The position numbers and the translations under genes were made by a program. From Deltaproteobacteria bacterium (GTDB taxonomy: Bacteria > Desulfobacterota > Desulfobacteria > Desulfobacterales > JAUWMJ01), in contig DAOWEJ010000103.1 in NCBI GenBank assembly GCA_030638575.1, positions 5,417 to 69,416 on the forward strand: DNA of 64,000 bases, written 5' to 3'. The notes beneath the pieces were generated by a model. That model searched no databases and had not been told where the DNA came from. It saw only the letters and a list, made by a program, of their open reading frames with translations. How positions within the stretch are numbered: the stretch's first letter is position 1; each line of letters begins with the position of its first letter. Positions 6,897 through 48,731 of this stretch are shown piece by piece.

Positions 6897-7883
6897 TCAC
6901 ATTTCTTTTTTTATTTTGTGTCTTTTTATTTTTTCCACAAGAGTAGTTCGTTTAATCTGGAGAAGTTCAGCTGCTTTGTTTTTAATCCAGTTAGTCTTTT
7001 CCAGTGCTTTTATGATAAGGGCTTTTTCATATTCGGTTACCGCAGTATTGAAATTTATTCCTTCCCCCGGGACGTCTATCTCTAGAAGGGTTTTTCGATC
7101 TTTACCTGACTTGATTTTTTCAGGCAAATCCTGATGTAATATCTCTCCATTTTCATTTAAAACCACCAGTCTTTCAATCAAATTTTTAAGCTCTCTTACA
7201 TTTCCAGGCCAGGGATAATCCATTATAATATCCATTGCCTCATCTGAAATTGTTACAATGCCTTTTTTTTTCTCCTCGGAAAATTTCCTAAGAAAATGAT
7301 AAACTAGAAGGGGTATATCCGATCCTCTTTCTTTTAAAGGTGAGAGAACTATAGGAATGACATAGAGACGGTAAAACAGGTCTTCTCTGAAATTTCCTTT
7401 TTGAACCTCTTTTTCTAAATCCCGATGTGTTGCGGTGATGACTCTAACATCTGCCTTTATGGTTTTGTTTCCGCCTACCGGTTCAAATTCATTTTCTTCC
7501 AGAACCTTTAATACTTTTACCTGAAGGTCCATGCTCATATCGCCGATTTCGTCCAGAAAAACAGACCCTCCTTCTGCCAGTTCGAATTTTCCGGGTTTAT
7601 TCGATATGGCACCGGTAAATGCTCCTTTAACATGACCGAAAAGTTCGCTTTCCAGAAGGCCTTCGCTAATTGCTCCGCAATTTAACTGGATAAAAGGTTT
7701 GTTCTTTCGGTTGGAGCATTGGTGAATCGCTTTGGCTATTAACCCTTTGCCTGTTCCTGTTTCTCCGTTGATCATTATCGTAGTGTCACTGTTTGAAACT
7801 TTCTTGACTATACTGAAAATTTCTTTCATCGGTTCGCTTTCACTGATGATACTATCAAATATATGTGTATGTCCGGATTTCAT
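6897..7883 (-). CDS. Sigma-54-dependent activator, AAA+ plus HTH only (no sensory domain)
   Basis: GETGTGKG Walker A, intact ELFGHVKGAFTGA, GSVFLDEI, and C-terminal Fis-type HTH (NKAAELLQIKRTTLVEKIKRHKI). Only about 20 aa precede the AAA+ core. Confidence 0.9.
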   Translation of the reverse strand: MKSGHTHIFDSIISESEPMKEIFSIVKKVSNSDTTIMINGETGTGKGLIAKAIHQCSNRKNKPFIQLNCGAISEGLLESELFGHVKGAFTGAISNKPGKFELAEGGSVFLDEIGDMSMDLQVKVLKVLEENEFEPVGGNKTIKADVRVITATHRDLEKEVQKGNFREDLFYRLYVIPIVLSPLKERGSDIPLLVYHFLRKFSEEKKKGIVTISDEAMDIIMDYPWPGNVRELKNLIERLVVLNENGEILHQDLPEKIKSGKDRKTLLEIDVPGEGINFNTAVTEYEKALIIKALEKTNWIKNKAAELLQIKRTTLVEKIKRHKIKKEM

Positions 7884-24829: not shown

Positions 24830-26008
24830 ATGTTTTTTTTCGATTTAATTCCGACTCCCACATGGCGTGATTTTGCCGATATTCTTTTTCTTACATTCGT
24901 TACCTACCAGCTCTATGTCTGGTTCAAAGAGACCCGTGCGCTTCGAGTCCTTATAGGCCTCGCAGTGCTCGGAGCTATCTATTCCCTGGCCAAGCTGTGG
25001 GGCTTTTTCCTGACTACCATGGTTTTTCAGATTCTATGGCAGGTGTTGTTAATCCTTTTGCTGATACTCTTTCAGTCCGAAATCAGACAGGTTTTGGAAA
25101 AAGTAAGCCCCCTTCGTTATCTTAGATCGAAAAGGCGCGCTTTTCGTGGTTCTTTTGCAAAGAGCCTTGCCAGGACAGCCTTTGAGCTTGCCGGTGAAGG
25201 AACAGGAGCCCTCATCGTTCTTGTAAGAGATGACAACCCCGCTGAATTTGTTCATTCAGGCCAAACCATAATGGCCCTTCCCGAACCTTCTTTAATTAAA
25301 AGTATTTTTAGCCATCATGCTCCTGCTCATGACGGTGCTATAATCCTGTCTCAGGATTGCCTTACACAAATGGGATGTATTTTGCCTTTATCTAAAAAAG
25401 AGGGACTTCCGGAACAGTATGGAACCCGTCACCGTGCCGCCCTCGGCCTTTCAGAAAGGACAGATGCTGTTTGTCTTGTCGTTTCTGAAGAAAGGGCTGA
25501 AGTCTCAACAGTAACAGGCGGGGAAATTCAAACCTGGGAGGATTCCGAACTCCTGGCGGAAAAACTTAAAAAATTGCTGGGCGTTCCGGAAAGTATAGTG
25601 GGCTCACCAAAAGATTTTATAAAAGAGGCCTTTATCCAGAACTGGAAGGCGAAACTGGGAGCCCTGGCGTTGGTAACAATGGCATGGCTGGTTCTTGCAA
25701 GCCAGCAGGAAGTTAAAACCAGTATTACCGCTCCCATCAGACACCTTAATATACCTTCTGAACTTGTTTTGGGGAAGAATTCGGCGGAATCGGTCAGTCT
25801 GACCATTTCCGGCAGGAGAAATAGTATAAGGGCATTGCGAGACCAGGATATCCGGGTTGATGTTGATCTTGCAAATTTATCTTCAGGTATGCATCAGATA
25901 AGGTTGTCTGCAAAAAATGTTGATTTGCCTCTGGGCGTTAAAGTTGACAATGTAATGCCGAAGAATATTAGGGTTGTATTGAAGTCGTTGGGCAAGGAGA
26001 TTCGATAG
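24830..26008 (+). CDS. cdaA: Diadenylate cyclase CdaA fused to a YbbR/CdaR-like domain
   Basis: Three N-terminal TM helices, then DAC motifs HDGAIILS and GTRHRAALGLSE. An extra TM helix (LGALALVTMAWLVLA) follows, and then a YbbR-like beta-rich segment. Confidence 0.8.
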   Translation: MFFFDLIPTPTWRDFADILFLTFVTYQLYVWFKETRALRVLIGLAVLGAIYSLAKLWGFFLTTMVFQILWQVLLILLLILFQSEIRQVLEKVSPLRYLRSKRRAFRGSFAKSLARTAFELAGEGTGALIVLVRDDNPAEFVHSGQTIMALPEPSLIKSIFSHHAPAHDGAIILSQDCLTQMGCILPLSKKEGLPEQYGTRHRAALGLSERTDAVCLVVSEERAEVSTVTGGEIQTWEDSELLAEKLKKLLGVPESIVGSPKDFIKEAFIQNWKAKLGALALVTMAWLVLASQQEVKTSITAPIRHLNIPSELVLGKNSAESVSLTISGRRNSIRALRDQDIRVDVDLANLSSGMHQIRLSAKNVDLPLGVKVDNVMPKNIRVVLKSLGKEIR

Positions 26009-26137: not shown

Positions 26138-28468
26138 TTAAGCAATTCCGATGAATTCAAAATTTAACTTTGCCTGGAACTTTTCAATTCTTATAAAGAT
26201 TTCCTTTAGCATTTTCTGTTCGATACGGGTAAGTGTTTTTGGGTTTATATAGTTGTCGGGTTTTGCCTTTTCATCAATTATTGCTGTGAGTTGGCGTACA
26301 AACCGCAGCTGCAGGAGGAAACTGTAAGCTCTTTCAAGTTCTTCATATTCCTGTCGGTTGAAGACCCTTTTTATGTATAGCTGGCGCAGTCTTTCAAGAG
26401 TATTGGTTTCTTCGATTTTATTTTTCAGGGCATAAATTCTTGCAAAATCGACGATGGGCGTCATGGCGCTTTTAATATCGAAAGCATCGCGGTGTTCGCC
26501 TTTTGATTCAACGACAAAATTTCGAAAAAAGCCAAGAGGCGGCTTAAAGTACAGGGCATTTTCAGTCAGATGGCGGAAAAATCCCGACCAACCTTCCAGG
26601 GAACCAAAAAGGTGCCGGCGGAGGGAATCGATAAGGGTGTCATCACCATAACCTATGCGAAAATCAAAAAAGATACTGGCTTGAAGCAGGTCTTCAGCTT
26701 CAGCAGCATGAATCCAGCTTGAAAAATATTTTTTCCATTTCGATAAAGGTTGGCACCATTTGGGGTTTTTTGCCATTACATCGCCGGTGCAAAAGTCATA
26801 TCCGGCCTTGTCGAGCATGGTGCATACTTTTTCTCCGAACTTAAGAAAATAGTCTCTTACCCTAGACTCATCTTCTTTTGGAACATCTTCAAAAATAATT
26901 GCATTATCCTGGTCGGTTTTCAGAGTTTGTTCCCTTCTGCCTTCACTCCCTAAAATCATGAATACAAACTTAGCAGGCGGCTGTCCTAATGTATCGAGTG
27001 TATATCCTATAAGCTTGGCAAGGATGGAGCACGACACCGTGGTGATAAATCGGGTTAAGTTTTCCGCCTTTGCCCCGCTGGTTATCAGACTCTGGATCTG
27101 CCTGGGAAGCTTGTTATGTCTGTCGATGATCTCCTCTATGTTGTTTGCTGCCGAAATTTCGCGAACAAGGAATACCGGTGATTTTCCCTGGGCAGTAAGA
27201 AGGTCGCGGTTGGTAAGAATTCCTGTTACCTTTTCATTGGCATCCGTAACGGCAATATGCCTGATATCTTCCTGCATCATTGCCATAAGGGCCTCAAAAA
27301 TAAGGGCGTGGTCTGAAATCGTGTACACGGGTGAAGACATGATATCTGAAACAGGCCGTGAAATATCATATCCGGTTGCAATAACTTTTTTTGTAAGGTC
27401 TTTTTCCGTTACAACCCCTACACAGTTTCCATCCTGCGTATTAATAAAAATAGAACTTATTTGTTCCCGGCTCATTATTCCGGCTGCTTCCTGGATGGAC
27501 ATTTTTGTATTACCGAAAACAGGTTTTTTAGCAGAAATGTTTGCAACAGTCTGGTTGAAAAATTGCAGCCCCTCTTCTTCGGGCTGCATTGTCTTTGCAA
27601 TAATGGAAGCATACGATTTTTCAAGCATCCGTTTGCCGAAGGTATCTGTAAAATATTCGGTGAACGCTTTATAGCGTGAGCAGATATCTAAAAACAGTTG
27701 TTTCGGAAGAAGATAAAAAGACGATATTTCATTTACCCTAAATGTCCGCACCGAGATACCGTCATTTACAAGCATCGATATACCGCCGTATATGTCGCCT
27801 TCGCTTAACATCTCAATCATAGTTTTTTTATGGTTTTCTTCGTAATATCGCTCTGCCGAACCTTTTTGTACGATATAAAGATATCCCACCCTGGATCGTT
27901 CCTGAACAAACAGGACTGTATCTTTAGGATGATGCACCATGGTAAGCTTGGGGACTATCCGACTAATCTCCTCTTCAGGGAGGAAGGAAAATGGCTCCAC
28001 TCCGGTCAGGAAACGTTTTGCCTGGCCGGTTTCAATAATCGATGCGATTGATTCATCAAATATATTTTTACTGAAATTTTTAACAAAGTATTCGTAAAAT
28101 GCCTTGTTACGTGTACAGTAATCCTGGAAATCTTCTTTGGGAATCATATAGCCGGAGCAATCCTTGTCAACAATGATCGTTCTTAAGGAAATACCACCGT
28201 TCATCAGTATTGTAATTCCACCGAACACTTCACCAGGCTTAATATAGCCTACCAGTTTTTTTTCTCCCTGTTTTTCGTTATAAAGTGCGAAAGAGCCCTT
28301 TTGCACGACAAAGATACTGTCTATTTTTGTCTTGTCCTGAACTGCAAAAAGAGTGCCCTTAGGATGGCTTTTAAAGGAAGCCTTATCGGAAATTTTTTTT
28401 AATTCTTTCTTTGAGAGAAAGGAAAAATGGGGCATGTTTGACAAATATTTTAAGGCTTGTTCACTCAT
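26138..28468 (-). CDS. Two cNMP-binding-like domains + CBS pair + DUF294-type nucleotidyltransferase protein
   Basis: Two cNMP-barrel-like segments (GEVFGGITILMNG, GDIYGGISMLVNDG), then a CBS pair. The pol-beta NTase signature is GSEGRREQTLKTDQDNAI. Start set at MSEQALKYL (ATG 28468); the track's upstream 26 codons lie in MITE B3. Confidence 0.8.
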   Translation of the reverse strand: MSEQALKYLSNMPHFSFLSKKELKKISDKASFKSHPKGTLFAVQDKTKIDSIFVVQKGSFALYNEKQGEKKLVGYIKPGEVFGGITILMNGGISLRTIIVDKDCSGYMIPKEDFQDYCTRNKAFYEYFVKNFSKNIFDESIASIIETGQAKRFLTGVEPFSFLPEEEISRIVPKLTMVHHPKDTVLFVQERSRVGYLYIVQKGSAERYYEENHKKTMIEMLSEGDIYGGISMLVNDGISVRTFRVNEISSFYLLPKQLFLDICSRYKAFTEYFTDTFGKRMLEKSYASIIAKTMQPEEEGLQFFNQTVANISAKKPVFGNTKMSIQEAAGIMSREQISSIFINTQDGNCVGVVTEKDLTKKVIATGYDISRPVSDIMSSPVYTISDHALIFEALMAMMQEDIRHIAVTDANEKVTGILTNRDLLTAQGKSPVFLVREISAANNIEEIIDRHNKLPRQIQSLITSGAKAENLTRFITTVSCSILAKLIGYTLDTLGQPPAKFVFMILGSEGRREQTLKTDQDNAIIFEDVPKEDESRVRDYFLKFGEKVCTMLDKAGYDFCTGDVMAKNPKWCQPLSKWKKYFSSWIHAAEAEDLLQASIFFDFRIGYGDDTLIDSLRRHLFGSLEGWSGFFRHLTENALYFKPPLGFFRNFVVESKGEHRDAFDIKSAMTPIVDFARIYALKNKIEETNTLERLRQLYIKRVFNRQEYEELERAYSFLLQLRFVRQLTAIIDEKAKPDNYINPKTLTRIEQKMLKEIFIRIEKFQAKLNFEFIGIA

Positions 28469-28486
28469 AGTTACACCCTTTATTTT

Positions 28487-28681
28487 GACGTTCTCGTAAA
28501 AAGTCTCCCGCTTCAGTGCAGCGGGACGTTGTGCTGCATTTCGCAATCATTCAAAATACGATAAGTACTTCTTGTGATTATCCCGCTTTAGCGGGACACG
28601 CCTTTTTATCCCGTTGCTTTTTAGCGGGGGAATTTGAACTTTTTACGAAACCGTCTAAATCAGACTTTTTACGAGTTCATC
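28487..28681 (+). mobile_element. MITE-like repeat family B, copy B3
   Basis: GACGTTCTCGTAAAAAGTC...GACTTTTTACGAGTTCATC. Flanks are TTATTT(T)/TTATTT. Begins 19 nt upstream of the cNMP/CBS gene start. Confidence 0.85.
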
Positions 28682-30376: not shown

Positions 30377-31363
30377 TCAGTGTCTGTTCGTTTTAATATT
30401 GAATTTAAGTAGTTTGTATCTCAAAGTTCTGGGGCTGATGTTAAGGATCCTTGCTGTCTTTTCTTTATCACATTCGGTTCTGTTTAGAGCTTCTAAAATG
30501 GCTTTTGTTTCTGCAGTTTTACGTACTTGTGCTAAATCCATCATTTGAGGTGGTTCTTGAAAATGCCAAAGAAAATCCGATGGGAGCGATCTTGGACTGA
30601 TAACATCTTTATCATTAACAATGAACACTCTTTCAATGAGATTTTTTAGTTCCCTGACATTTCCCGGCCAGTCATACCGAAGGAAAATATTAATGAGCTC
30701 CGGTGTGACTGATGGTTTCGGCTTTTTATATTTGGCCGCCATTTGATTAAGAAACTGATCTACCATTTTGGGGATGGCTTCTCTTCTTTTTCTAAGTGGT
30801 GGTAAGTGGATAGGTACAACCTGAATTCTGTAAAAAAGATCCTCCCGGAAAGAATCGGCTTTGATAAGAGATTTTAAATTTTTATTCGTTGCGGAAATCA
30901 GGCGGATCGATACCTGAATTTTTTTTTCGCCTCCGATCCTTCTGAACCTGAAATCTTCTAAAACTCGTAAAAAATCAACTTGATTTTCAACAGGTAGCTC
31001 AGAAATTTCGTCAAGAAACAGGGTGCCTTGATGTGCCATTTCAAAACAGCCCTTTTTTCTGCGGGTGGCACCTGTAAAAGCTCCTTTTTCATGCCCGAAC
31101 AGCTTGTCTTCAAACATTAAGCCTGAAAGAACACCACAATTTACAGGGACAAAGGGATTCACAGCTCTGGGACTAAGGAGGTGAATAATTTTAGCAAGCA
31201 ATTCCTTGCCGGTGCCACTTTCCCCGGTAATCAAAACATTTACATCAAATCCGGCTACCTGATTGACAACCTTCATTATAGAATGCATGGAAGAGCATTC
31301 TAAAACAAACTCTTGTATTGCAGCATCACGAAGAAACTTTATGTTGGATGATTGAAGTTTCAT
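30377..31363 (-). CDS. Sigma-54-dependent activator, AAA+ plus HTH only
   Basis: GESGTGKE, HEKGAFTGA, LFLDEI, and HTH KTARILNISPRTLRYKLLKF. I start it at MKLQSS (ATG 31363). The track's TTG start at 31507 would add 48 low-complexity residues. Confidence 0.85.
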   Translation of the reverse strand: MKLQSSNIKFLRDAAIQEFVLECSSMHSIMKVVNQVAGFDVNVLITGESGTGKELLAKIIHLLSPRAVNPFVPVNCGVLSGLMFEDKLFGHEKGAFTGATRRKKGCFEMAHQGTLFLDEISELPVENQVDFLRVLEDFRFRRIGGEKKIQVSIRLISATNKNLKSLIKADSFREDLFYRIQVVPIHLPPLRKRREAIPKMVDQFLNQMAAKYKKPKPSVTPELINIFLRYDWPGNVRELKNLIERVFIVNDKDVISPRSLPSDFLWHFQEPPQMMDLAQVRKTAETKAILEALNRTECDKEKTARILNISPRTLRYKLLKFNIKTNRH

Positions 31364-31580
31364 AAAATTTAAATGAAAAATCAGGTGTTGAAAAGTCGAG
31401 TGTGGGAGCCTGATCGGCGCATGAAGGGTAATTATGTTCAGGCAAATTCTTAAAATGCTTCGGCAGCGAAGCACCCTCAACAAATCAGGTTTTATCGGGA
31501 TTGTCAAAAAAAACAGTTTCCAGCCAAGCTTTAATTAAATCTGAATTGATTTAGAGTCAAGATAATTGGCAAGCTTTTTC

Positions 31581-31606
31581 ACGTTTTGGCAATATTTTGC
31601 CAAAAC
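31581..31606. promoter_or_regulatory. Perfect palindrome, candidate enhancer (UAS) for the adjacent sigma-54 activator
   Basis: CGTTTTGGCAA-tatt-TTGCCAAAACG is centred about 107 bp upstream of the -24 element. An extra half-site TTGGCAAG lies at 31565-31572. Confidence 0.55.
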
Positions 31607-31699
31607 GGTACCGTCGGTCTTTTTTTCTTAAAATGTCGGCGATTTTGATTACTGTTATTATAACAGTTAGTTATAAGCCATACCTATTATATTCAAATT

Positions 31700-31715
31700 T
31701 GGCACATCCTTTGCT
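31700..31715 (+). promoter_or_regulatory. Sigma-54 (-24/-12) promoter
   Basis: TGGCAC-atcct-TTGCT matches TGGCAC-N5-TTGCW exactly. It lies 40-65 nt upstream of the first CBS gene and is divergent from a sigma-54 activator gene. Confidence 0.8.
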
Positions 31716-31778
31716 TTACCTTATTACTTCGCTATTGCCTGTAGAGGCTCAGTTTTGAATTATAAGGATACAAACTTT

Positions 31779-32285
31779 ATGCCTTTTGAAAAGATCGTTA
31801 ATGAATTTATGCGCCCCTTAAACCAGTATCCTGTTTTAAGAACCGGGCAAACGGTAAGCACAGCTTTAAATCAAATCAAAAAGTCTTTACGCCGGAATAA
31901 ATTACCTCATCTAATTGTAGCGGAAAATGACGCTTCAGGGGCCGAAATAATCAAAGGGTTTATTACACCTTCGGATATAGTCTTCGGGATGGCTGAACAT
32001 TTTCTTAAAGGCGCGGAAAAAACCGGCCCGATTTTCTGGGAAGGCCAATTGGAAACAGAATGCCGGTTTGCCGTTCAAAAACGTATTGAAGAAGTCATGA
32101 CGCCTATTAAGGTCTGTATTAGAGATGATGAAATGCTGATGGAAGCGATTTTTTTATTAAAGAAATATCAGGTAGATCTTCTTCCGGTAGTTCATGATGA
32201 CGAAGTGATCGGATTGATCCATCTTGAAGACATTTTAAAGCAAATTGCTCATATGGCCATAAAAAAAATCCCAACCGGTATTTAA
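31779..32285 (+). CDS. Stand-alone CBS-pair protein
   Basis: Two CBS-like motifs (…IIKGFITPSDIVF…, …VIGLIHLEDILKQI). ATG at 31779 has AAGGA 9 nt upstream; the track's TTG start is at 31755. Confidence 0.75.
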   Translation: MPFEKIVNEFMRPLNQYPVLRTGQTVSTALNQIKKSLRRNKLPHLIVAENDASGAEIIKGFITPSDIVFGMAEHFLKGAEKTGPIFWEGQLETECRFAVQKRIEEVMTPIKVCIRDDEMLMEAIFLLKKYQVDLLPVVHDDEVIGLIHLEDILKQIAHMAIKKIPTGI

Positions 32286-32470: not shown

Positions 32471-33025
32471 ATGAGAGCGATAATTGTAAAAAATTTGATG
32501 GTGCCACTCAAAGAATATGCAACTGTTTCCCAAGAGGCTACTCTGTACGAGGCAGTCCTTGCTTTGGAAAAAGCTCAAATGGCACTTGACCCGTCACAGC
32601 ATAAACACCGTGCAATATTGGTGCTTGATGAGAGCAGAAAAGTTTTGGGTAAAATAAGCATGAAAGATATCCTGATCGCACTTGAACCGAATTATGGGAA
32701 ATTGGAAGGTATGGGAGTGCTATCCAGTTCAGGATATAGTCCGGAGTTGATCAAGTCCATGCTCGAAGATAACGTTCTTTGGCGTGAACCTTTAGAGTTT
32801 GTTTGCAACAGGGCAACCAAACTGAAAGTGAGCGATTTTATCAGAGCTCCCCTGGATGGTGAGCATATTGATGAAAATGCTACACTGGGTGAGGCAATAC
32901 ACCAACTGGTTGTGTATCGTTTTCATTCTCTGCTTGTGACCAGCGGTGATGAGGTCGTGGGAGTATTAAGGCTGTCTGATGTATTCACAAAAATTTGTGA
33001 CAAGATCAAATCCTGCGAATTTTGA
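32471..33025 (+). CDS. Stand-alone CBS-pair protein
   Basis: VLGKISMKDILIAL and VVGVLRLSDVFTKI are CBS motifs. SD AAGGAG upstream. Confidence 0.75.
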   Translation: MRAIIVKNLMVPLKEYATVSQEATLYEAVLALEKAQMALDPSQHKHRAILVLDESRKVLGKISMKDILIALEPNYGKLEGMGVLSSSGYSPELIKSMLEDNVLWREPLEFVCNRATKLKVSDFIRAPLDGEHIDENATLGEAIHQLVVYRFHSLLVTSGDEVVGVLRLSDVFTKICDKIKSCEF

Positions 33026-33102
33026 ATCCGAACTGTTTTTGAGAACAGGCGAGATACAATTAAATAGAAATTTTAATGAGATACATAAGGAGGAGTTTTT
33101 TT

Positions 33103-34707
33103 ATGGACGTTAATACTCACGGAGAAAAAACCGGAATATTCGCCAAGAAAGGACTGTGGATCGGTATAGGTGTTGGTATTTTTATACTAGTAGCCTTTAT
33201 TTTGCCAACGCCCCAGTCTCTTATCGACGTAATGGAAAAATACGGGTATGTCCAAAAAATGATTGACTGGGAGATCGCCCATGACGTTAAGGAGGCTTCC
33301 GCTAAAACGATGATCGTACTGGGGATTGTTCCCATGGCGGTTATCTTTTTTGCCGTAGAGGCCCTCCCCATCGGCGCAACGGGCATCCTGATGCCTCTCA
33401 TGGCTTACTTTTTCGGGCTTCTTCCTTTCAACCTGATTGGGAAAACCTTTTCCGGTGATGCACCTTTGTTCATGCTTGGCGTTTTTGCCTTGGGAGCGAC
33501 GGTTGTAGAGGTAGGTTTCCATAAGCGATTGGCCGTTTGGCTGCTGGGATGGACCAAAGGGTTCTGGGTTCCTATGATCGTGTTGTGCATAAGTATGTCA
33601 ATCGTGGGTTCGTTTATGTCGGCCCCAGCTATGTGTTCTTTTATGGTGCCGGTGATAATGGCTGTCTATTACGGGTCGGTGAAGGCCAACAGCCCGGAGG
33701 GGAAGGTGGTTCACGATCCGGCTCTGGCCAAATTTCTGCTTTTTTCCCTTTGCTTCGCCCTGAATATGGGAGGGCCCGGAACACCTTCTGCCGGCGGACG
33801 TAATGTGATCATGATGGGTTTCTTTAACGAATACGGCATACCGATCACTTACTCCGGCTGGATGAAATACGGGTGGCCACTGGTGCCGCTCGGCAGTGTC
33901 ATGCTGTTGCTCTATATGGCAACTTTTTTTAGCAAGAAAATTAAGACTCGGGATCTGACCCCAGGGCTGCAATATATAAAGGACGAGACGCGCAAAATGG
34001 GAAATATGAGTTATGCCGAATATATCACTGCCGGGTCGCTTTTCCTCATTGTGGCCCTCTGGATATTTGGCGGAGAAGCAACGGGATTGGGCGGTCCGGC
34101 TCTTCTGGCTCTTGTAATACCGGTTTTATTCAAGACCGTGAAATTTGAAAATATACTGAACCGTATATCCTTTAATGCATGGTTCATGTACTGCGGTGCT
34201 TTGACTCTGGGCGCCCTTCTTAAGGAAAGTGGCGGCGCCCTGTGGCTGGCGACAACCTTTCTGGACGGGCTCTCACAAGTTGGCATGGATAAAGGTTACG
34301 GGTTGTGGGTCGGGATGTCCGCTTTCTCCGGTCTTGTTACCAATTTTATGTCTGATGCCGCCACCGTCGCCCTTATCGGGCCGATTGTCGTCCCCATGGG
34401 GATTATGACTCAGGTCGCCGGGGAGCCCTGGGCCATCGGCATGGCCGTGGCACTGGCATCTTCTTATGCCCATTTTCTTATTGTGGGCTCACCTGCCAAT
34501 GCGCTCACATTTGCACTGGGAGTTTATCCCGATACAAATAAGCGGGTCCTTGAAGCGATTGATTTTGTAAAATACGGTTTCGGATTTTTTGTGCTGTCCA
34601 TGCTTTTGCTCTGGATCGTCGGATTTTTTGTGGTCTATCCCATCGTTGGTTTTCCGGAAGGGGTTCTCGAGCAGGCAACGCAGGTGCTTCAAAGTACTGC
34701 CCGGTAG
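33103..34707 (+). CDS. DASS/SLC13-like (ArsB/NhaD superfamily) anion transporter
   Basis: About 12-14 TM helices with paired hairpin-like SFMS-APA / SDAATVAL motifs. ATG 33103 is preceded by AAGGAGGAG 7 nt upstream (track start 33076). Confidence 0.65.
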   Translation: MDVNTHGEKTGIFAKKGLWIGIGVGIFILVAFILPTPQSLIDVMEKYGYVQKMIDWEIAHDVKEASAKTMIVLGIVPMAVIFFAVEALPIGATGILMPLMAYFFGLLPFNLIGKTFSGDAPLFMLGVFALGATVVEVGFHKRLAVWLLGWTKGFWVPMIVLCISMSIVGSFMSAPAMCSFMVPVIMAVYYGSVKANSPEGKVVHDPALAKFLLFSLCFALNMGGPGTPSAGGRNVIMMGFFNEYGIPITYSGWMKYGWPLVPLGSVMLLLYMATFFSKKIKTRDLTPGLQYIKDETRKMGNMSYAEYITAGSLFLIVALWIFGGEATGLGGPALLALVIPVLFKTVKFENILNRISFNAWFMYCGALTLGALLKESGGALWLATTFLDGLSQVGMDKGYGLWVGMSAFSGLVTNFMSDAATVALIGPIVVPMGIMTQVAGEPWAIGMAVALASSYAHFLIVGSPANALTFALGVYPDTNKRVLEAIDFVKYGFGFFVLSMLLLWIVGFFVVYPIVGFPEGVLEQATQVLQSTAR

Positions 34708-34807
34708 CCTGCGAAAATATTAGCGGTCAGCTAAGATCTCTTTGAGCAATATTGTTTTTTACTTTTAACTTTTCAGGCCGTTCGGGTTGGGAGGTAAAGC
34801 ATAAACT

Positions 34808-36574
34808 ATGGAGTCTAAAATTTCTTCAAAAAGTTCAGTCCTGCATTCAATCTTAAGGGGTTTGTTCTCAGATGAACATGCCATTACGGCCATATTGGGT
34901 ATTATAGTGGGGGTGGCAGGTGGTTTTGGAGCTGTCGGGTTTCGCTACCTTATAAACTTTTTCCAGTTTATCTCTTATGGGTCTGCAGCCGAATTGCTTG
35001 GTGTGGTTCAATCGATTCCATGGTATTTCAGGATTGCAATTCCCGCCCTCGGCGGACTGATTGTGGGTCCGGTTGTGTATTTTTTCGCCAGAGAAGCCAA
35101 GGGACACGGCGTTCCGGAAGTCATGTACTCCGTTGCCCTCCAAAGGGGGATTATAAGAAAGCGGATCGTTGGTATCAAGGCTCTGGTATCCGCTGTTTGT
35201 ATCGGAACCGGCGGCTCGGTTGGAAGAGAGGGCCCCATCGTTCAAATCGGCTCTGCAGTCGGATCGACCCTTGGGCAACTATTTAAGGTGTCGGGTAATA
35301 GAATGAGAACTATGGTGGGCTGCGGCGCTGCTGCCGGTATTGCAGCCACTTTCAATGCCCCCATTGCCGGTTCCATTTTTGCCATTGAAATCATTCTGGG
35401 CGAATTTGAAATTGCCAGTTTCAGCCCTATCGTTATCTCTGCTGTTTCGGCCACGGCTATTTCACGCCATTTCCTCGGGGATATCCCTGCATTTATTCTT
35501 CCTGCCTATATCCTTCACAGCCCCCTGGAATTTCCTTTGTATGCTATTTTGGGTGTCTTTTGTGCCCTGGTTGCCGTGGCTTTTACTTTATTTCTCTACC
35601 GTGCAGAAGATGTATGGGATGCGATTAAGTTCCCCGAATATCTCAAGGCAGTCGTGGGGGGATTAATGATGGGAACGATGGGGCTTATGTTCCCTCAGGT
35701 TTTAGGTGTAGGTTACGGCGCTATTGATCTGGCGCTTATGGTAAAGCTGTCCTGGTGGTTCATGGGTCTTCTGGTTCTCTTTAAAATCCTGGCCACATCC
35801 ATTACGATCGGATCTGGAGGTTCCGGCGGCATTTTTGCGCCTTCACTTTTTATGGGTGCTATGGCGGGAGGCGCTTTTGGAACGGTCGCTCATCATTTCT
35901 TTCCTTCAGTGGCGGCCTCTGCCGGAGCTTATGCTGTTGTCGGCATGGGAGCGGTCGTGGCTGCCACCACACATGGCCCTTTACAAGCGATATTGATTAT
36001 TTTTGAAATGACCGGTGACTACAAAATAATTCTTCCACTGATGATTACATGCATTATCAGCACCCTGGTTGCAAGACGGCTATGCGGTGAATCTATTTAT
36101 ACCTTTAAATTAATAAGAAGGGGGATAAACATCAAGGCGGGCAAAGAGGTCAATGTATTAAAATCAATGTATGTAAAAGATGTGATGTATCATAATGTAG
36201 AAACAGTACCGGAGAGCATGTACCTGAAAGAATTCGCCGAAAACCTGCCGGAAAGCAGGTCTAACAATTTCATAGTTGTTAATGATGAAGAGGAAATTAC
36301 CGGGGTGCTTACATTTCTAGATTATTATGACGCCTTATTTCGTGGAAAGATAAATGATCAGATGGTAATAGGAGATATTGCAGCCCGGGATGTGGTTACT
36401 GTATCAAGGGAAGATAATATCAGCACGGCTCTGGGAAAAATCACTGCGGAGGATTTCTCTATTCTGCCCGTTGTGTCCTCGGACAATCCTTTAAAACTGT
36501 TAGGAATTCTGACGCGCAGAGATATCCTTGAAGCTTATGATGAGGCTGTGGTTAAGAAATCTATCAAAAAATAG
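34808..36574 (+). CDS. ClC-family chloride channel/antiporter with C-terminal CBS pair
   Basis: Selectivity-filter motifs GSVGREGP, GAAAGIAATFNAPIAG and GSGGIFAPSLF, with two CBS motifs at the C-terminus. Confidence 0.92.
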   Translation: MESKISSKSSVLHSILRGLFSDEHAITAILGIIVGVAGGFGAVGFRYLINFFQFISYGSAAELLGVVQSIPWYFRIAIPALGGLIVGPVVYFFAREAKGHGVPEVMYSVALQRGIIRKRIVGIKALVSAVCIGTGGSVGREGPIVQIGSAVGSTLGQLFKVSGNRMRTMVGCGAAAGIAATFNAPIAGSIFAIEIILGEFEIASFSPIVISAVSATAISRHFLGDIPAFILPAYILHSPLEFPLYAILGVFCALVAVAFTLFLYRAEDVWDAIKFPEYLKAVVGGLMMGTMGLMFPQVLGVGYGAIDLALMVKLSWWFMGLLVLFKILATSITIGSGGSGGIFAPSLFMGAMAGGAFGTVAHHFFPSVAASAGAYAVVGMGAVVAATTHGPLQAILIIFEMTGDYKIILPLMITCIISTLVARRLCGESIYTFKLIRRGINIKAGKEVNVLKSMYVKDVMYHNVETVPESMYLKEFAENLPESRSNNFIVVNDEEEITGVLTFLDYYDALFRGKINDQMVIGDIAARDVVTVSREDNISTALGKITAEDFSILPVVSSDNPLKLLGILTRRDILEAYDEAVVKKSIKK

Positions 36575-38264: not shown

Positions 38265-40853
38265 ATGGCGAAATTTTTAAGCATTTTCGATTTTTTTAGT
38301 AAAAATCGGCGTGACAAGGTCCTTAACGATGAAGATGAAAAAGAGCTTTTTGTCGAACGTTACAGGGCCTTTCGCGAGATCCTTAAAAACAACCACCAGG
38401 TGCTGATGACCATGGGAGATATGCAGGAAAAGGCCGGCGGAGCCTACCTGTTTGATAAAGCTTATATCAGGTCTTCAAGCAGCACTCTGCTTTTAGGGAT
38501 TGAGAAAATTATCGGCCAGTTGAATCTGCTTTCCGATGACCGGTATAAGGGCCTGATTGTTTCATTTCAAAAATGTATGGCCGGAATTCAAAATCTGCTG
38601 GAATCCAGGATCAGTATTCCTCAGACAGAATGTACTAAAGATTTAAAAAAAATAACTAAAAGAGATATTGCATCGGCCGGAGGAAAAATTGCAAATCTGG
38701 GAGAACTTACCTCTGCACTTGATCTGCCGATTCCCCCCGGCTTTGTTATAACGACATGGGCCTACAAGTCATTTATGGAATTTAATCAAATCCAGGATTT
38801 TTTAGTAGATGAGCTAAAGAAGCTGGATATTCGTAATTACGATGCTTTGCGGGCAACAACCGATATAATTCAAAAAAAAATTCTAAACGCCAACATTCCG
38901 CCCGAGCTGAAAAATGAAATATTGGACGCATACCGGACCCTTTGCCATGTAACGGGTCAGTATCAACTCAAAGTAGCCGTGCGAAGCAGCGCCATTCATG
39001 AAGATATAAGAGCAAGTTTTGCAGGGCAATATATAAGCGCTTTGGATGTGCCGGCGGACAGGATTTTGGATGAGTACAAATCCGTTATTACAAGCCAGTT
39101 TTCACCACGGGCGATTTTCTATTTTAAAGATAAACAATTTAATATTGAGAACATGGCGATGGCTGTCGGAGTCCTCGCCATGGTGGATGCTGATGTCAGC
39201 GGTGTCATGTATTCACGTGATCCTGCAAAGCCGGACGAGCACTGCTCCCTTATTAACGCGGTTTGGGGTCTGGGAGAATATGCTGTTGGCGGTGTGGTTT
39301 CAGCAGATTACTACTCTGTTTTAACAGAAAATGGTGAAAAAAATATTAGTCTGGAATGTGGCGATCAGAAAGTAATGATGGTTACAAATCCGGAAGGTGG
39401 AACAGACGAGGTCGAAGTTCCTCGGGATAAGCTTGGCACACCATGTCTGGATAACGACCAGATAAAAGACCTTGTTGTCATAGCAGAAAGATTAGAAGAT
39501 CATTTCGGGTATCCCCAGGATATTGAATGGTCAATTGATAAAAAAAACCGGATATACGTTTTGCAGAGTCGGCCTTTACACTTTGCCTCATCTGCACTTA
39601 GGTCCGGAACGAAAAGGCCTTCTGTTATCAAAGGACAAACAATTTTGCTTAATAAGGGGAAAGTAGTCTGTCGCGGGGTTGGTGCAGGGAATGTTCATAT
39701 TGTGCGGCGGGAAGAAGATATGGCGAATTTTCCTGATAGTGGGGTACTTGTGATCAGACATAGTCATCCTGAATTTGCAGTTTTGCTTAAAAAGGCGTCG
39801 GCTGTTATCTCCGATGTCGGCACACCTCTGGGTCACCTGGCTACAGTGGCACGAGAAAATAATGTGCCTGCGATTTTTAATACTGAAAATGCAACAAAAA
39901 TTCTCGAGAACGGCATGAAAGTTACAGTTGATGCCGTATACGCTAATGTTTACAAAGGAAGTGTAGATGAACTTTTAGGCCAGGGAAAAAAAGAGGACGA
40001 TTTTTCTTCATCTCCGGTTGTTAAGCAACTTAGAGAAATTTTAAAAGTAATTACGCCATTGAATCTGACCGATCCCCGCAGTCCATCATTTACTCACACG
40101 GGATGCAAGACTTTGCATGACATCACACGTTTTTCCCATGAAATGGCAATGCAGGAGATGTTTGATTTAACTATAGACAGCAATTTTTCCGAGCGATCGG
40201 CCAGGCGGCTGGTTGCTGAAATTCCGCTGCAATGGTGGGTCATCGATTTGGAAGACGGAATTCAAGGGGGCAGTAGAGGAAAAACCGTTAGAATTGACCA
40301 GATCGTCTCTATCCCAATGCGTGCCTTATGGGAAGGAATGATAGCTATTCCTTGGAAGGGTCCGCCGCCTATTGATACCAAAGGATTTCTTTCGGCGATG
40401 TTTAAGGCTTCGAGCGATCCAAGTATTGATCCCGCAGTATCAAAACGCTTTGCCGATAGAAATTATATTCTTGTTGCCAGGAACTTTTGCAATATAAGCG
40501 CACGACTCGGATTCCATTTTTCTACTACCGAATCATTTATTGACGAGGAGGAGAACCAGAATTATATCAGTTTCGTATTTACCGGCGGCGGTGCGGATGA
40601 TGGAAGAAAAAACCGACGGGTTAAATTAATATCAAGGCTTCTTGAACGATTCGACTTTCGTGTTACATTAAGAAACGATACTGTTTTTGCCCGTATAGAG
40701 GGGTATAAGCCTGCTTTCATGAAAGAGCGCCTTAAAGCGCTCGGTCATATTATTGTACATACACGTCAGATGGATATGGTTATGTACAATGACAAGATGG
40801 TTGACTGGTATTATAAAGAAATAGAGAAAGATATTTTATCTTTTTTTAGTTAA
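38265..40853 (+). CDS. PEP-utilising (PpsA/PPDK-like) enzyme with non-canonical C-terminal domain
   Basis: N-terminal ATP-grasp/PPDK_N region (ASAGGKIANLGEL...VAVRSSA..ED) and a swivel phosphohistidine domain (SDVGTPLGHLATVARENNVPA). In the last ~310 aa I see none of the PEP/pyruvate TIM-barrel motifs. Confidence 0.7.
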   Translation: MAKFLSIFDFFSKNRRDKVLNDEDEKELFVERYRAFREILKNNHQVLMTMGDMQEKAGGAYLFDKAYIRSSSSTLLLGIEKIIGQLNLLSDDRYKGLIVSFQKCMAGIQNLLESRISIPQTECTKDLKKITKRDIASAGGKIANLGELTSALDLPIPPGFVITTWAYKSFMEFNQIQDFLVDELKKLDIRNYDALRATTDIIQKKILNANIPPELKNEILDAYRTLCHVTGQYQLKVAVRSSAIHEDIRASFAGQYISALDVPADRILDEYKSVITSQFSPRAIFYFKDKQFNIENMAMAVGVLAMVDADVSGVMYSRDPAKPDEHCSLINAVWGLGEYAVGGVVSADYYSVLTENGEKNISLECGDQKVMMVTNPEGGTDEVEVPRDKLGTPCLDNDQIKDLVVIAERLEDHFGYPQDIEWSIDKKNRIYVLQSRPLHFASSALRSGTKRPSVIKGQTILLNKGKVVCRGVGAGNVHIVRREEDMANFPDSGVLVIRHSHPEFAVLLKKASAVISDVGTPLGHLATVARENNVPAIFNTENATKILENGMKVTVDAVYANVYKGSVDELLGQGKKEDDFSSSPVVKQLREILKVITPLNLTDPRSPSFTHTGCKTLHDITRFSHEMAMQEMFDLTIDSNFSERSARRLVAEIPLQWWVIDLEDGIQGGSRGKTVRIDQIVSIPMRALWEGMIAIPWKGPPPIDTKGFLSAMFKASSDPSIDPAVSKRFADRNYILVARNFCNISARLGFHFSTTESFIDEEENQNYISFVFTGGGADDGRKNRRVKLISRLLERFDFRVTLRNDTVFARIEGYKPAFMKERLKALGHIIVHTRQMDMVMYNDKMVDWYYKEIEKDILSFFS

Positions 40854-48449: not shown

Positions 48450-48731
48450 TCAGTCGCCGTTGATTTTATCTCTTAGTTTCCCGGAACATTTGAATGTAAC
48501 GACTTTGCGTTCTCTCAGGATTAAGTCTGAACCTGTAGCCGGGTTTCGCCCACGGCGCTGGTTTTTGTATTTCACACAGAATTTCCCAAATCCAGAGATC
48601 AGGACATCGTCTCCCCTCTCAAGCGTGTTTTTCATGATTTCCAAAAGAGATTCAACGATATCAACAGATTTTTTTTTGGTAAAGCCGAGTTCATGTATTC
48701 TTGTAACAATGTCATTCTTGGTTAACGCCAT
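48450..48731 (-). CDS. HU/IHF-family DNA-bending protein (IHF-like)
   Basis: 93 aa. GFGKF...RRGRNPATGSDLILRERKVVTFKCS is the beta-arm signature. Confidence 0.88.
   Translation of the reverse strand: MALTKNDIVTRIHELGFTKKKSVDIVESLLEIMKNTLERGDDVLISGFGKFCVKYKNQRRGRNPATGSDLILRERKVVTFKCSGKLRDKINGD

What the first reader, a model, noticed from the sequence alone, without database searches (positions are those of the whole stretch)
31565..31715. Textbook sigma-54 control region: near-consensus -24/-12 element plus a perfect 11-nt-arm palindrome about 107 bp upstream
TGGCAC-atcct-TTGCT (31700-31715) fits TGGCAC-N5-TTGCW exactly. CGTTTTGGCAA-tatt-TTGCCAAAACG (31581-31606) sits at the usual enhancer distance, and an extra TTGGCAAG half-site lies at 31565-31572. 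The region is divergent from a sigma-54 activator gene (30377-31363). That activator consists only of an AAA+ domain and an HTH, so its activity must be controlled in trans or by expression level.
Basis: partly seen in the sequence, partly recalled or inferred. Interest (0 to 1): 0.6.

Follow-up and report, generated by a model that had tools for sequence, protein, structure and literature searches.

The report
Conserved sigma-54 switch, sensor-less activator
This is a real and evolutionarily conserved but textbook-style sigma-54 genetic switch (activator gene, two activator binding sites, a DNA-bending site and the promoter) that turns on small CBS sensor proteins and an anion (possibly sulfate) importer in marine sulfate-reducing bacteria; how the sensor-less activator is itself controlled remains untested.

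Summary
TGGCAC-atcct-TTGCT lies exactly at 31700-31715 and is the only such match in the window.

Of 42 related Desulfobacterales loci with upstream sequence, 41 keep the same layout:
- a divergent 312-406 aa activator with no sensor domain;
- a sigma-70-type promoter for the activator gene;
- two tandem GGCAA-N4-TTGCC sites 20-21 bp apart.
- an IHF-like box at a fixed offset;
- a -24/-12 element whose spacer varies freely.

The palindrome is unique in the 2.3-Mb assembly, so this looks like a one-operon regulon here. Across 200 genomes of the order, the UAS-promoter module co-occurs with the activator (p about 1e-6).

The target is a CBS-CBS-DASS transporter (-ClC) operon. Published work describes such clusters as putative sulfate-uptake clusters.

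Verdict: a new member of a known kind; modest interest.

The parts
30377..31363 (-). Sensor-less sigma-54 activator (bEBP), 328 aa: AAA+ sigma-54 interaction domain, lid and a Fis-type HTH. There is no N-terminal regulatory domain.
   Evidence: Pfam gives Sigma54_activat at 6.8e-64, AAA_lid_14 at 4e-23 and HTH_8 at 1.3e-9. GAFTGA, Walker A and Walker B are invariant in orthologues. All 120 closest homologues are 312-406 aa with the same domains. No NCBIfam equivalog cut-off is reached; the best is PrdR at 337 bits against a cut-off of 795, and PspF scores 261 against 444.
31385..31514 (.). An extra segment of about 130 nt between the activator start codon and its promoter. It is absent from the 95%-identical relative L001.
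   Evidence: Pairwise BLASTN against L001. The segment is unique in the assembly. Direct repeats AAATCAGGTGTT / AAATCAGGTTTT lie at 31378-31389 and 31482-31493.
31533..31560 (-). Sigma-70-type promoter candidate for the activator gene: -35 TTGACT at 31560-31555 and a weak -10 TTAATT at 31538-31533.
   Evidence: In 32 of 41 sequences a perfect TTGACA sits at a near-fixed offset beyond UAS1, the same offset in 28 of the 41. A -10-like hexamer (GATAAT, TAAAAG) follows 16-18 nt on. The window copy is weaker and lies 12 nt closer. Function is inferred.
31568..31581 (.). UAS1, the distal enhancer site: GGCAAGCTTTTTCA. The left half matches the consensus; the right half has decayed (TTTCA instead of TTGCC).
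   Evidence: The alignment consensus is AAACGGCAA-N4-TTGCC, always 20-21 bp upstream of UAS2. A direct repeat TTGGCAAGCTTTT / TTGGCAATATTTT has a spacing of 20 nt.
31582..31607 (.). UAS2, the proximal enhancer site: a perfect palindrome with 11-nt arms. The conserved core GGCAATATTTTGCC lies at 31588-31601, centred about 130 nt upstream of the predicted start.
   Evidence: Inverted repeat I4, 100% complementary. GGCA-N6-TGCC is invariant in all 38 loci aligned and lies 110-116 (rarely 126) nt upstream of the -24 TGG. The site is unique in the 2.31-Mb assembly.
31661..31673 (+). IHF-like box TAACAGTTAGTTA, with 2 mismatches to WATCAANNNNTTR, centred about -58.
   Evidence: In most relatives the best match starts 39-41 nt upstream of the TGG. 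25 of 39 sequences have at most 1 mismatch, against 7% of shuffles. The conserved block aaATAnCAa--agTTAt appears in the alignment. IHF-alpha-like and IHF-beta-like genes are present in the assembly, below equivalog cut-offs.
31700..31715 (+). Sigma-54 promoter: -24 TGGCAC and -12 TTGCT. The predicted transcription start is about 31725.
   Evidence: Exact consensus and unique in the window. In relatives the TGG and TTGCT blocks are conserved while the 5-nt spacer varies freely. The start site is inferred from the canonical -12 position and was not measured.
31779..32285 (+). First target gene, a stand-alone CBS-pair protein (CBS1, 168 aa). The RBS AAGGA lies at 31765-31769.
   Evidence: Pfam CBS at 5.7e-15. 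The orthologue is the first gene after the promoter in most related loci.
32471..36574 (+). Probable remainder of the operon: CBS2 (32471-33025), a DASS/CitMHS-family anion:Na+ symporter (33076-34707) and a ClC channel with a CBS pair (34808-36574).
   Evidence: Pfam and NCBIfam. The CBS-DASS order after the promoter is conserved in relatives, while ClC occurs only in this window. The scan flags no + strand terminator in the gaps between these genes; its + strand hits fall inside the coding regions. The extent of the operon is inferred.

Best explanation
The 415-bp intergenic region 31364-31778 is a complete, functional sigma-54 enhancer-promoter module.

Proposed mechanism:
1. The divergently encoded 328-aa activator is made from its own sigma-70-type promoter.
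2. It binds as dimers, through its Fis-type HTH, to two tandem GGCAA-N4-TTGCC sites. UAS1 is centred at about -150 and UAS2 at about -130, two helical turns apart.
3. It assembles into an AAA+ hexamer.
4. An IHF-like bend at about -58 brings the hexamer to sigma-54 RNA polymerase bound at TGGCAC-N5-TTGCT.
5. ATP hydrolysis drives open-complex formation, with transcription starting near 31725.

The transcript encodes two stand-alone CBS-pair proteins, a DASS-family Na+/anion symporter and, in this genome only, a ClC channel. Published work considers DASS transporters of this kind in sulfate reducers to be sulfate importers.

In this genome the activator appears to serve only this one operon. 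It has no sensor domain, so the signal must enter by another route. My ranking is: a partner protein acting on the AAA+ domain, with the co-encoded CBS proteins as the obvious candidates, about 40%; an always-on activator whose amount sets the output, about 35%; something else, the remainder.

What is shown: the sequence elements, their conservation and spacing, and their co-occurrence with the activator. What is inferred: DNA binding, looping, the transcription start, operon extent, transporter substrate and the mode of control.
For: The consensus -24/-12 element is unique in the window. This promoter type is strongly enriched genome-wide against controls.

41 of 42 assessable related loci carry YGGYAY-N5-TTGCW with a freely varying spacer, and GGCA-N6-TGCC lies 110-126 nt upstream. 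UAS1 and UAS2 are always 20-21 bp apart. The IHF-like box sits at a fixed offset and is enriched against shuffles.

The activator has every catalytic motif and a conserved HTH (ISPRTLR-KL) in orthologues of 62-95% identity, and none of them has a sensor domain.

Across 200 genomes of the order, 5 of 8 genomes with the activator have the UAS-promoter pattern, against 3 of 192 without it. Fisher p = 1.2e-6, and the reversed-pattern control also gave 3 hits. In four of the five, the pattern lies directly beside the activator gene.

Extra copies of the same module precede CBS-DASS operons in some relatives. The palindrome is unique in the assembly, and no other sigma-54 promoter there has a good site upstream.

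The assembly holds about 26 bEBP genes. rpoN is present in 20 of 21 relatives, including all 3 of the same genus. No Rfam family matches and the 5' UTR is not unusually structured.

Literature: sensor-less EBPs are a recognised minority thought to be partner-controlled (PMC4641369, PMC6615313). DASS + CBS clusters are proposed sulfate-uptake units in Desulfobacteraceae (PMC11887813, PMC5840216).
Against: No rpoN was found in this assembly: neither PF04552 nor PF04963 gave a hit. The assembly is only 76% complete.

Binding of this activator to the palindromes is inferred from co-occurrence and symmetry only.

The window's UAS1 right half, its IHF box (2 mismatches) and the activator's -10 element are all weaker than in relatives.

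Three of 8 genomes with the activator did not match the strict pattern. Locus L039 lacks the module.

For CBS-protein control there is only gene linkage, plus the existence of CBS-AAA+ fusions in a distant family: the PrdR profile is matched by CBS1 at positions 68-125 and by the activator at positions 266-576. None of 10 sampled nearest non-family relatives carries a CBS domain. A few related loci have the promoter directly in front of the transporter, with no CBS1.
Confidence: 0.85

Rival explanations
1. The architecture is as described, but the activator is constitutively active. Output would be set only by how much activator its sigma-70-type promoter makes (possibly with autoregulation), plus sigma-54 and IHF availability. 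No partner protein would be involved. This rival concerns the mode of control, not the module itself.
For: The activator has no sensor domain in any of 120 orthologues. A near-perfect, positionally fixed TTGACA -35 element suggests a strong promoter that needs no activator. Published proteomics found DASS transporters of such clusters to be formed abundantly and constitutively in cultured Desulfobacteraceae (PMC11887813). Some loci lack CBS1 next to the promoter.
Against: An always-on ATP-consuming activator at a dedicated promoter gives no regulatory benefit over a sigma-70 promoter. The characterised sensor-less bEBPs that I know of (PspF, HrpR/S; my own knowledge and PMC4641369) are held in check by partner proteins. 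At least one CBS-pair protein is encoded in nearly every cluster.
Confidence: 0.35
2. The GGCAA-N4-TTGCC palindromes are operators for a different transcription factor, such as a repressor or the response regulator of the neighbouring two-component system, and are not the enhancer of the divergent activator.
For: No binding experiment exists. The sites also lie about 60-80 nt upstream of the activator gene's own sigma-70-type promoter, so they could serve that promoter.
Against: The sites keep a constrained distance of 110-116 nt to the -24 element. They also travel with extra sigma-54 promoter copies located away from the activator gene. Their presence tracks the activator family across genomes. 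Inverted-repeat symmetry suits a Fis-type HTH dimer. From my own knowledge, OmpR/WalR-type regulators use direct repeats.
Confidence: 0.07
3. The promoter is a relic in this organism: sigma-54 is absent, so the element is not used.
For: Neither the sigma-54 DNA-binding domain nor the core-binding domain was found in the assembly.
Against: The assembly is 76% complete. It still encodes about 26 intact bEBPs. It shows 14 exact TGGCAC-N5-TTGCW promoter matches against 0 in the reversed-sequence control. rpoN is present in all three genomes of the same genus and in 14 of 14 high-quality relatives.
Confidence: 0.03
4. The palindrome acts as a nucleic-acid structure (cruciform, RNA hairpin or terminator) or as a sigma-54 pseudo-promoter. 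TGGCAA-N4-TTGCC resembles a -24/-12 element with the spacer 1 nt too short, in both orientations.
For: The arms are a perfect 11 nt. One symmetric double change preserves pairing between the window and L001 (T/A to C/G). The resemblance to the -24/-12 consensus can be read directly from the sequence.
Against: Beyond the GGCA/TGCC core, arm symmetry is not maintained across relatives. No T-run follows the stem on either strand, and the terminator scan found nothing here. From established knowledge, sigma-54 promoters do not tolerate a change in -24/-12 spacing.
Confidence: 0.02

Closest known systems
Escherichia coli pspF-pspABCDE control region (PspF/PspA). Details are from my own knowledge; the analogy is also drawn in PMC4641369 and PMC6615313.
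   Same: The activator lacks any N-terminal regulatory domain and is transcribed divergently from its single target operon. Two tandem upstream sites, an IHF site and a sigma-54 promoter lie in the shared intergenic region. The activator gene has a sigma-70-type promoter.
   Different: This is not a PspF orthologue: TIGR02974 scores 261 bits against a cut-off of 444, and identity to the nearest EBP clusters outside the family is at most about 53%. The operon has no PspA/IM30 protein; the first genes encode CBS-pair proteins and a transporter. The UAS sequence is different. Negative control by the first operon product is unproven here.
Sensor-less EBPs of Desulfovibrio vulgaris Hildenborough (DVU2894, DVU2956, DVU2989) in the sigma-54 regulome study PMC4641369
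   Same: They occur in sulfate reducers rich in EBPs, where a minority lack N-terminal domains (4 of 37 in that organism). Those authors predicted regulons in the same way, from co-located promoter and palindromic UAS, and gave the same inference of partner-protein control or a cascade.
   Different: This is a different order (Desulfobacterales) and a different target operon. Orthology was not tested here. No motif resembling GGCAA-N4-TTGCC was seen in the passages I read.
DASS-type sulfate-transporter gene clusters with CBS-domain proteins and two-component systems in Desulfosarcina variabilis and other Desulfobacteraceae (PMC11887813). DASS expression depends on sulfate level in Desulfobacterium autotrophicum (PMC5840216).
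   Same: The gene content matches: a DASS Na+/anion symporter, several stand-alone CBS proteins and nearby sensor kinase and regulator genes. The same bacterial family is involved. The authors also speculate that CBS proteins provide an intracellular control layer.
   Different: The section I read describes no sigma-54 promoter, enhancer sites or sensor-less activator. Orthology of this window's transporter to the named Dvar/HRM2 genes was not tested. The substrate is unproven.
NtrC at glnAp2, the general bEBP enhancer paradigm (my own knowledge)
   Same: Tandem dyad-symmetric sites lie more than 100 bp upstream and nucleate an AAA+ oligomer that contacts sigma-54 holoenzyme by DNA looping.
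   Different: NtrC carries a phosphorylatable receiver domain, and its recognition sequence is different. The activator here has no receiver.

Membership tests
Sigma-54 (-24/-12) promoter class | GG and GC doublets exactly 10 nt apart within TGGCAC-N5-TTGCW | tested here: met
   TGGCACATCCTTTGCT at 31700-31715, exact and unique in the window.
Sigma-54 (-24/-12) promoter class | The element is conserved in orthologous positions while the spacer and flanks drift | tested here: met
   41 of 42 assessable loci have it. The TGG and TTGCT columns are near-invariant and the spacer varies.
Sigma-54 (-24/-12) promoter class | The organism encodes sigma-54 (rpoN) | tested here: inconclusive
   Not found in this 76%-complete assembly. 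Present in 20 of 21 relatives, including 3 of 3 in the same genus. About 26 bEBPs are present.
Sigma-54 (-24/-12) promoter class | Transcription starts about 12 nt downstream of the GC and depends on rpoN | not testable with these tools
Bacterial enhancer-binding protein (bEBP), sensor-less PspF-like architecture | AAA+ sigma-54 interaction domain with Walker A, Walker B and the GAFTGA loop | tested here: met
   PF00158 at 6.8e-64. GESGTGKE, GAFTGA and LFLDE are present and conserved.
Bacterial enhancer-binding protein (bEBP), sensor-less PspF-like architecture | C-terminal Fis-type HTH | tested here: met
   PF02954 at 1.3e-9, residues 284-321.
Bacterial enhancer-binding protein (bEBP), sensor-less PspF-like architecture | No N-terminal regulatory domain | tested here: met
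   The AAA+ core starts at residue 22. The upstream in-frame extension to the TTG at 31507 is not matched in relatives, whose alignments start at residue 1-16. All 120 orthologues are 312-406 aa with no extra domain.
PspF proper (TIGR02974 / PRK11608) and the Psp system | Score above the equivalog cut-off | tested here: not met
   260.7 bits against 443.55, and 224 bits against 529.
PspF proper (TIGR02974 / PRK11608) and the Psp system | The target operon begins with PspA (IM30), the negative regulator | tested here: not met
   The operon proteins are CBS, CBS, DASS and ClC. There is no PspA_IM30 hit.
PrdR (NF041552), the best-scoring NCBIfam model | Score above the equivalog cut-off and an N-terminal CBS/PAS region | tested here: not met
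   337 bits against 795. Only profile positions 266-576 are matched, so the N-terminal part is absent.
IHF-assisted enhancer looping | A WATCAANNNNTTR site between the UAS and the promoter | tested here: met
   The window has TAACAGTTAGTTA (2 mismatches) at 31661-31673. 25 of 39 sequences have at most 1 mismatch at the same offset, against 7% of shuffles.
IHF-assisted enhancer looping | IHF alpha and beta subunits are encoded | tested here: inconclusive
   Four HU/IHF-family genes were found. One matches IHF-alpha best (96.5 bits against a cut-off of 111) and two match IHF-beta best (106 and 96 bits against 115). All are below the equivalog cut-offs.
Cognate UAS of the divergent activator | The activator binds the GGCAA-N4-TTGCC sites | not testable with these tools
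   Only indirect support: co-occurrence with Fisher p = 1.2e-6, constrained spacing and a conserved HTH.

The most novel reading that the evidence does not exclude
The stand-alone CBS-pair proteins encoded behind the promoter would be the detached sensor of this sensor-less activator. They would bind an adenosyl ligand or ion that reports sulfate activation or energy status, such as APS, ATP/AMP or c-di-AMP (a CdaA cyclase gene lies 6 kb away). They would clamp or release the AAA+ ring, giving a PspA/PspF-like feedback loop with a different partner fold that tunes sulfate or anion uptake in marine sulfate reducers. This would be the first CBS-protein anti-activator of a bEBP.
Probability: 0.2. 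Interest if true: 0.6.

Novelty: new member of a known kind. Interest (0 to 1): 0.3.

Why it matters
The module is textbook in design. Its value is as a clean, conserved example and as a regulatory handle on a gene cluster (DASS transporter plus CBS proteins) that recent work proposes as a sulfate-uptake unit of Desulfobacteraceae, key players in marine carbon and sulfur cycling (PMC11887813).

That work did not describe a sigma-54 layer in the text I read. The layout defined here (activator, UAS1/UAS2, IHF box, -24/-12) gives precise sequences for reporter, gel-shift and knockout tests in cultured relatives such as Desulfococcus multivorans.

It also poses a concrete, testable question: how is a sensor-less activator gated, and do CBS proteins do it?

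Tried and rejected

2. Larger regulon in this genome: scans for TTGGCA-N6-TGCCAA and for GGCAA-N4-TTGCC with 0-2 mismatches, paired with sigma-54-like promoters, found only this locus. The other exact GGCAA-N4-TTGCC match (C82:12) sits at a contig edge with no promoter. Pairings with 2-mismatch sites look like chance.

3. rpoN in the assembly: not found with two Pfam models. I attribute this to incompleteness, given.

4. 'Rosetta-stone' support for CBS as the lost sensor: I looked for close relatives with a CBS domain fused to the AAA+ core. The family is a tight clade (at least 62% identity), and the next EBP clusters are at most about 53% identical. Ten sampled neighbours carry PAS, GAF, receiver, LMWPc or no N-terminal domain, and none carries CBS. 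Only the distant PrdR model combines CBS and AAA+. This is not supportive beyond showing that such fusions exist.

5. Extended palindrome symmetry as a selected feature: flanking positions outside GGCA/TGCC are not consistently symmetric across relatives, so the 11-nt arms are not a family trait.

6. Riboswitch or sRNA in the intergenic region: the only hit is a sub-threshold chance match to a eukaryotic lncRNA model, and the 5' UTR fold has a z-score of +0.68.

7. The 130-nt extra segment as a MITE: it has no other copy in the assembly.

8. FlbD ftr elements as a possible look-alike UAS: my recollection could not be checked in the papers held, so I make no claim.
Full report
**1. Observation**

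The sequence was read directly. It is the only match to TGGCAC-N5-TTGCW in the 64-kb window, where shuffles predict 0.06 matches.

The palindrome CGTTTTGGCAA/tatt/TTGCCAAAACG is real: two 11-nt arms, 100% complementary, with a 4-nt spacer. The extra TTGGCAAG is at 31566-31573, also shifted by 1 nt. The palindrome centre is 106.5 nt from the -24 GG.

The divergent ORF 30377-31363 (-) encodes 328 aa with only Sigma54_activat, AAA_lid_14 and HTH_8 domains. The AAA+ core begins at residue 22.

**2. Is it more than chance?**

The window lies in a 2.31-Mb, 124-contig, 76%-complete assembly.
- The exact sigma-54 consensus occurs 14 times, against 0 in the reversed-sequence control.
- TGGYAY-N5-TTGCW occurs 47 times, against 5 in that control.
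- Changing the spacer to N4 or N6 gives 10 matches each.

So sigma-54 promoters are a real, enriched feature of this genome. TTGGCA-N6-TGCCAA occurs once in the whole assembly. The 10-letter core GGCAA-N4-TTGCC occurs twice, against 1.3 expected, and only the copy studied here has a sigma-54 promoter downstream.

**3. Comparative evidence**

A scan of species-representative genomes with the activator protein returned 44 loci, all from Desulfobacterales-type metagenome-assembled genomes (Desulfococcus, Eth-SRB1 and others). They are 62-95% identical to the query. Two loci have no upstream sequence.

Of the other 42, 41 carry YGG(C/T)A(C/T)-N5-TTGC(T/A) on the strand opposite the activator, with GGCA-N6-TGCC 110-116 (rarely 126) nt upstream. 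Only L039 lacks the module.

The MAFFT alignment shows four islands of conservation in otherwise drifting DNA:
- AAACGGCAA-N4-TTGcc (UAS1);
- GGCAa-N4-tTGCC (UAS2);
- aaATAnCAa--agTTAt;
- tTGGtAt-----cTTGCT.

The 5-nt promoter spacer differs in nearly every lineage while the flanking blocks are fixed. This is the signature of selection on the -24/-12 contacts. UAS1 and UAS2 are always 20-21 bp apart, about two helical turns.

Its right half has decayed in this lineage: TTTCA in the window and in L001, against TTGCC in many of the more distant relatives.

Only the GGCA(A)/(T)TGCC core of the 11-nt arms is family-wide. The outer arm positions are not consistently symmetric in relatives.

**4.

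*(a) An IHF-like box.* The best match to WATCAANNNNTTR starts 39-41 nt upstream of the TGG in most loci. 25 of 39 sequences have at most 1 mismatch, and nine are perfect (for example TATCAATAAGTTG), against 7% of shuffled controls. The window copy, TAACAGTTAGTTA at 31661-31673, has 2 mismatches. The assembly encodes one IHF-alpha-like and two IHF-beta-like proteins. These are the best NCBIfam matches but fall below the equivalog cut-offs.

*(b) A sigma-70-type promoter for the activator gene.* In 32 of 41 sequences a perfect TTGACA lies at a near-fixed offset just beyond UAS1, on the activator's strand, at the identical offset in 28 of the 41. GATAAT or TAAAAG follows 16-18 nt later. In the window the equivalent is TTGACT (31560-31555, - strand) with a weak -10.

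A consensus -35 argues that the activator gene does not itself need an activator. This slightly disfavours a pure transcriptional cascade as the control route (inference).

*(c) An extra segment.* Relative to the 95%-identical L001, the window has about 130 extra nucleotides (31385-31514) between that promoter and the activator start codon. The segment is unique in the genome.

**5. Link between activator and sites**

The UAS-gap-promoter pattern and the activator protein were each searched in 200 other genomes drawn evenly from the order.
- The activator (at least 65% identity) is in 8 genomes, and 5 of those have the pattern.
- Of the 192 genomes without the activator, 3 have the pattern. 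The reversed-pattern control also gave 3 hits.
- Fisher p = 1.2e-6.

In four of the five, the pattern lies within a few hundred bases of the activator gene. In several relatives (L009, L014, L017, L044) a second copy of the same module sits 2-3 kb away, in front of a CBS-DASS operon in L009 and L014.

The HTH segment (ISPRTLR-KL) is conserved across orthologues, matching the conserved DNA core.

The family is patchily distributed: 8 of 126 genera, and only one of the three other genomes of the same genus.

**6. The activator**

Walker A, GAFTGA, Walker B and arginine-finger regions are invariant in an alignment of ten orthologues. All 120 closest homologues are 312-406 aa and carry no additional domain. 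Some are annotated as starting at the Met equivalent to residue 16, so the short N-terminal tail is not conserved.

In a search of 1.8 billion cluster representatives, the family appears as one cluster (62% identity). Identity then falls to 53% or less, to generic EBPs with PAS, GAF, receiver or no N-terminal domains.

No NCBIfam equivalog cut-off is reached. PrdR is best at 337 bits against a cut-off of 795, and PspF scores 261 against 444. The protein therefore works like PspF-type, sensor-less bEBPs but is not a member of the PspF family, and the operon has no PspA.

**7. Target genes**

After the promoter come:
- CBS1 (31779-32285), with RBS AAGGA and a predicted 5' UTR of about 54 nt;
- CBS2 (32471-33025);
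- a 543-aa DASS/CitMHS-family symporter (33076-34707);
- a ClC channel with a CBS pair (34808-36574).

Synteny in relatives shows a conserved set: CBS1, a second CBS protein and a DASS transporter. A small zinc-ribbon protein, a third CBS protein and an 862-aa PEP-synthase-like enzyme often follow. ClC is specific to this window.

The scan flags no + strand terminator in the gaps between these genes; its + strand hits fall inside the coding regions. The extent of the operon is inferred.

Published work describes DASS + CBS + two-component clusters in Desulfobacteraceae as putative sulfate-uptake units and speculates that the CBS proteins sense APS, ATP or ions (PMC11887813). DASS genes of Desulfobacterium autotrophicum respond to sulfate level (PMC5840216). 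I did not test orthology to those named genes, so the sulfate assignment is only a lead.

**8. Mechanism and rivals**

The best-supported reading is a standard enhancer-dependent promoter. Activator dimers bind UAS1 and UAS2 (about -150 and -130). An IHF-type bend forms at about -58. AAA+ hexamer contact with sigma-54 holoenzyme at -24/-12 leads to a start near 31725.

How the sensor-less activator is gated is open. The options I consider are:
- a partner protein, with the linked CBS proteins as obvious candidates. CBS-AAA+ fusions exist in the PrdR family and among Clostridiales EBPs (PMC6615313);
- constitutive activity set by activator level.

Other rivals are judged unlikely, for the reasons given in their entries: another factor using the palindromes; a dead promoter because rpoN is missing from the assembly; a structural role for the palindrome, or a pseudo-promoter.

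The missing rpoN is best explained by the 24% of the genome that is absent. rpoN is present in 20 of 21 relatives, and the assembly keeps about 26 EBP genes.

**9. Verdict**

The finding is correct and well conserved, but it is a textbook design: a new member of a known kind. Its modest interest lies in giving an unreported sigma-54 regulatory layer, with exact sites, to a putative sulfate/anion-uptake cluster of marine sulfate reducers. It also poses a testable question about CBS-protein control of a sensor-less activator.

Noticed in passing
window 31385-31514: An extra segment of about 130 nt lies between the activator's start codon and its promoter. It is absent from the 95%-identical relative L001, is bracketed by AAATCAGG(T/G)TTT-like direct repeats (31378-31389 and 31482-31493), and has no other copy in the assembly. 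It could be an insertion here or a deletion in L001.
   Followed up: partly
L009:~4091(-), L014:~7261(-), L017:~3505(+), L044:~3981(+): Some relatives carry a second full copy of the same module (GGCA-N6-TGCC 113 nt upstream of TGGTATnnnnnTTGCT). In L009 and L014 it sits in front of a CBS-DASS operon. The activator therefore controls at least two operons there, where this genome has one fused operon.
   Followed up: partly
whole assembly (G000): No rpoN was detectable (PF04552, PF04963), although the assembly has about 26 bEBP genes and strong enrichment of sigma-54 promoter motifs. The assembly is 76% complete, so the gene presumably lies in the missing part.
   Followed up: yes
order-level survey: The activator family and its module are patchy: 8 of 126 genera sampled, and only one of the three other genomes of the same genus. 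This suggests an accessory, possibly laterally moving cluster.
   Followed up: partly
window about 5893-6354 and 7350-7850 (- strand; C57:11309-11770 and C57:12766-13266): Two more sigma-54 activator genes lie in the same window. One sits in an open frame of only 342 aa, so it may be another sensor-less EBP. C95 holds two further short ones, in frames of 335 and 350 aa.
   Followed up: no
window 48459-48725 (-) (C57:53875-54141): An IHF-alpha-like gene (best NCBIfam match PRK00285, 96.5 bits against a cut-off of 111) lies in the same window as the IHF-box-bearing promoter.
   Followed up: partly
window 24830-26008 and 26138-28546: A CdaA-type diadenylate cyclase (DGA and RHR motifs readable in the translation) and a cNMP-binding + CBS + DUF294 nucleotidyltransferase lie just upstream of the cluster. 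Together with five CBS-bearing genes within about 12 kb, this makes c-di-AMP or adenosyl-ligand signalling a lead. CBS2 gives a weak match to the c-di-AMP-binding CbpB model (26 bits against a cut-off of 125).
   Followed up: no
L001 about 1437-1543 (reverse strand), compared with window 31716-31750: The nearest relative has a tandem duplication of about 29 nt (…cttatcactttgttattgctggcataa / ctattacttcattattgctggcataa…) in the 5' UTR just downstream of the -12 element. Its -12 reads TTGCA instead of TTGCT.
   Followed up: no
window 38265-40853: The 862-aa PEP-synthase-like protein matches PEP synthase models only over its N-terminal ATP-grasp and swivel-His parts (profile positions about 5-469 of 798). 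It is linked to the activator in many relatives, either after the CBS genes or directly downstream of the activator on its own strand.
   Followed up: partly
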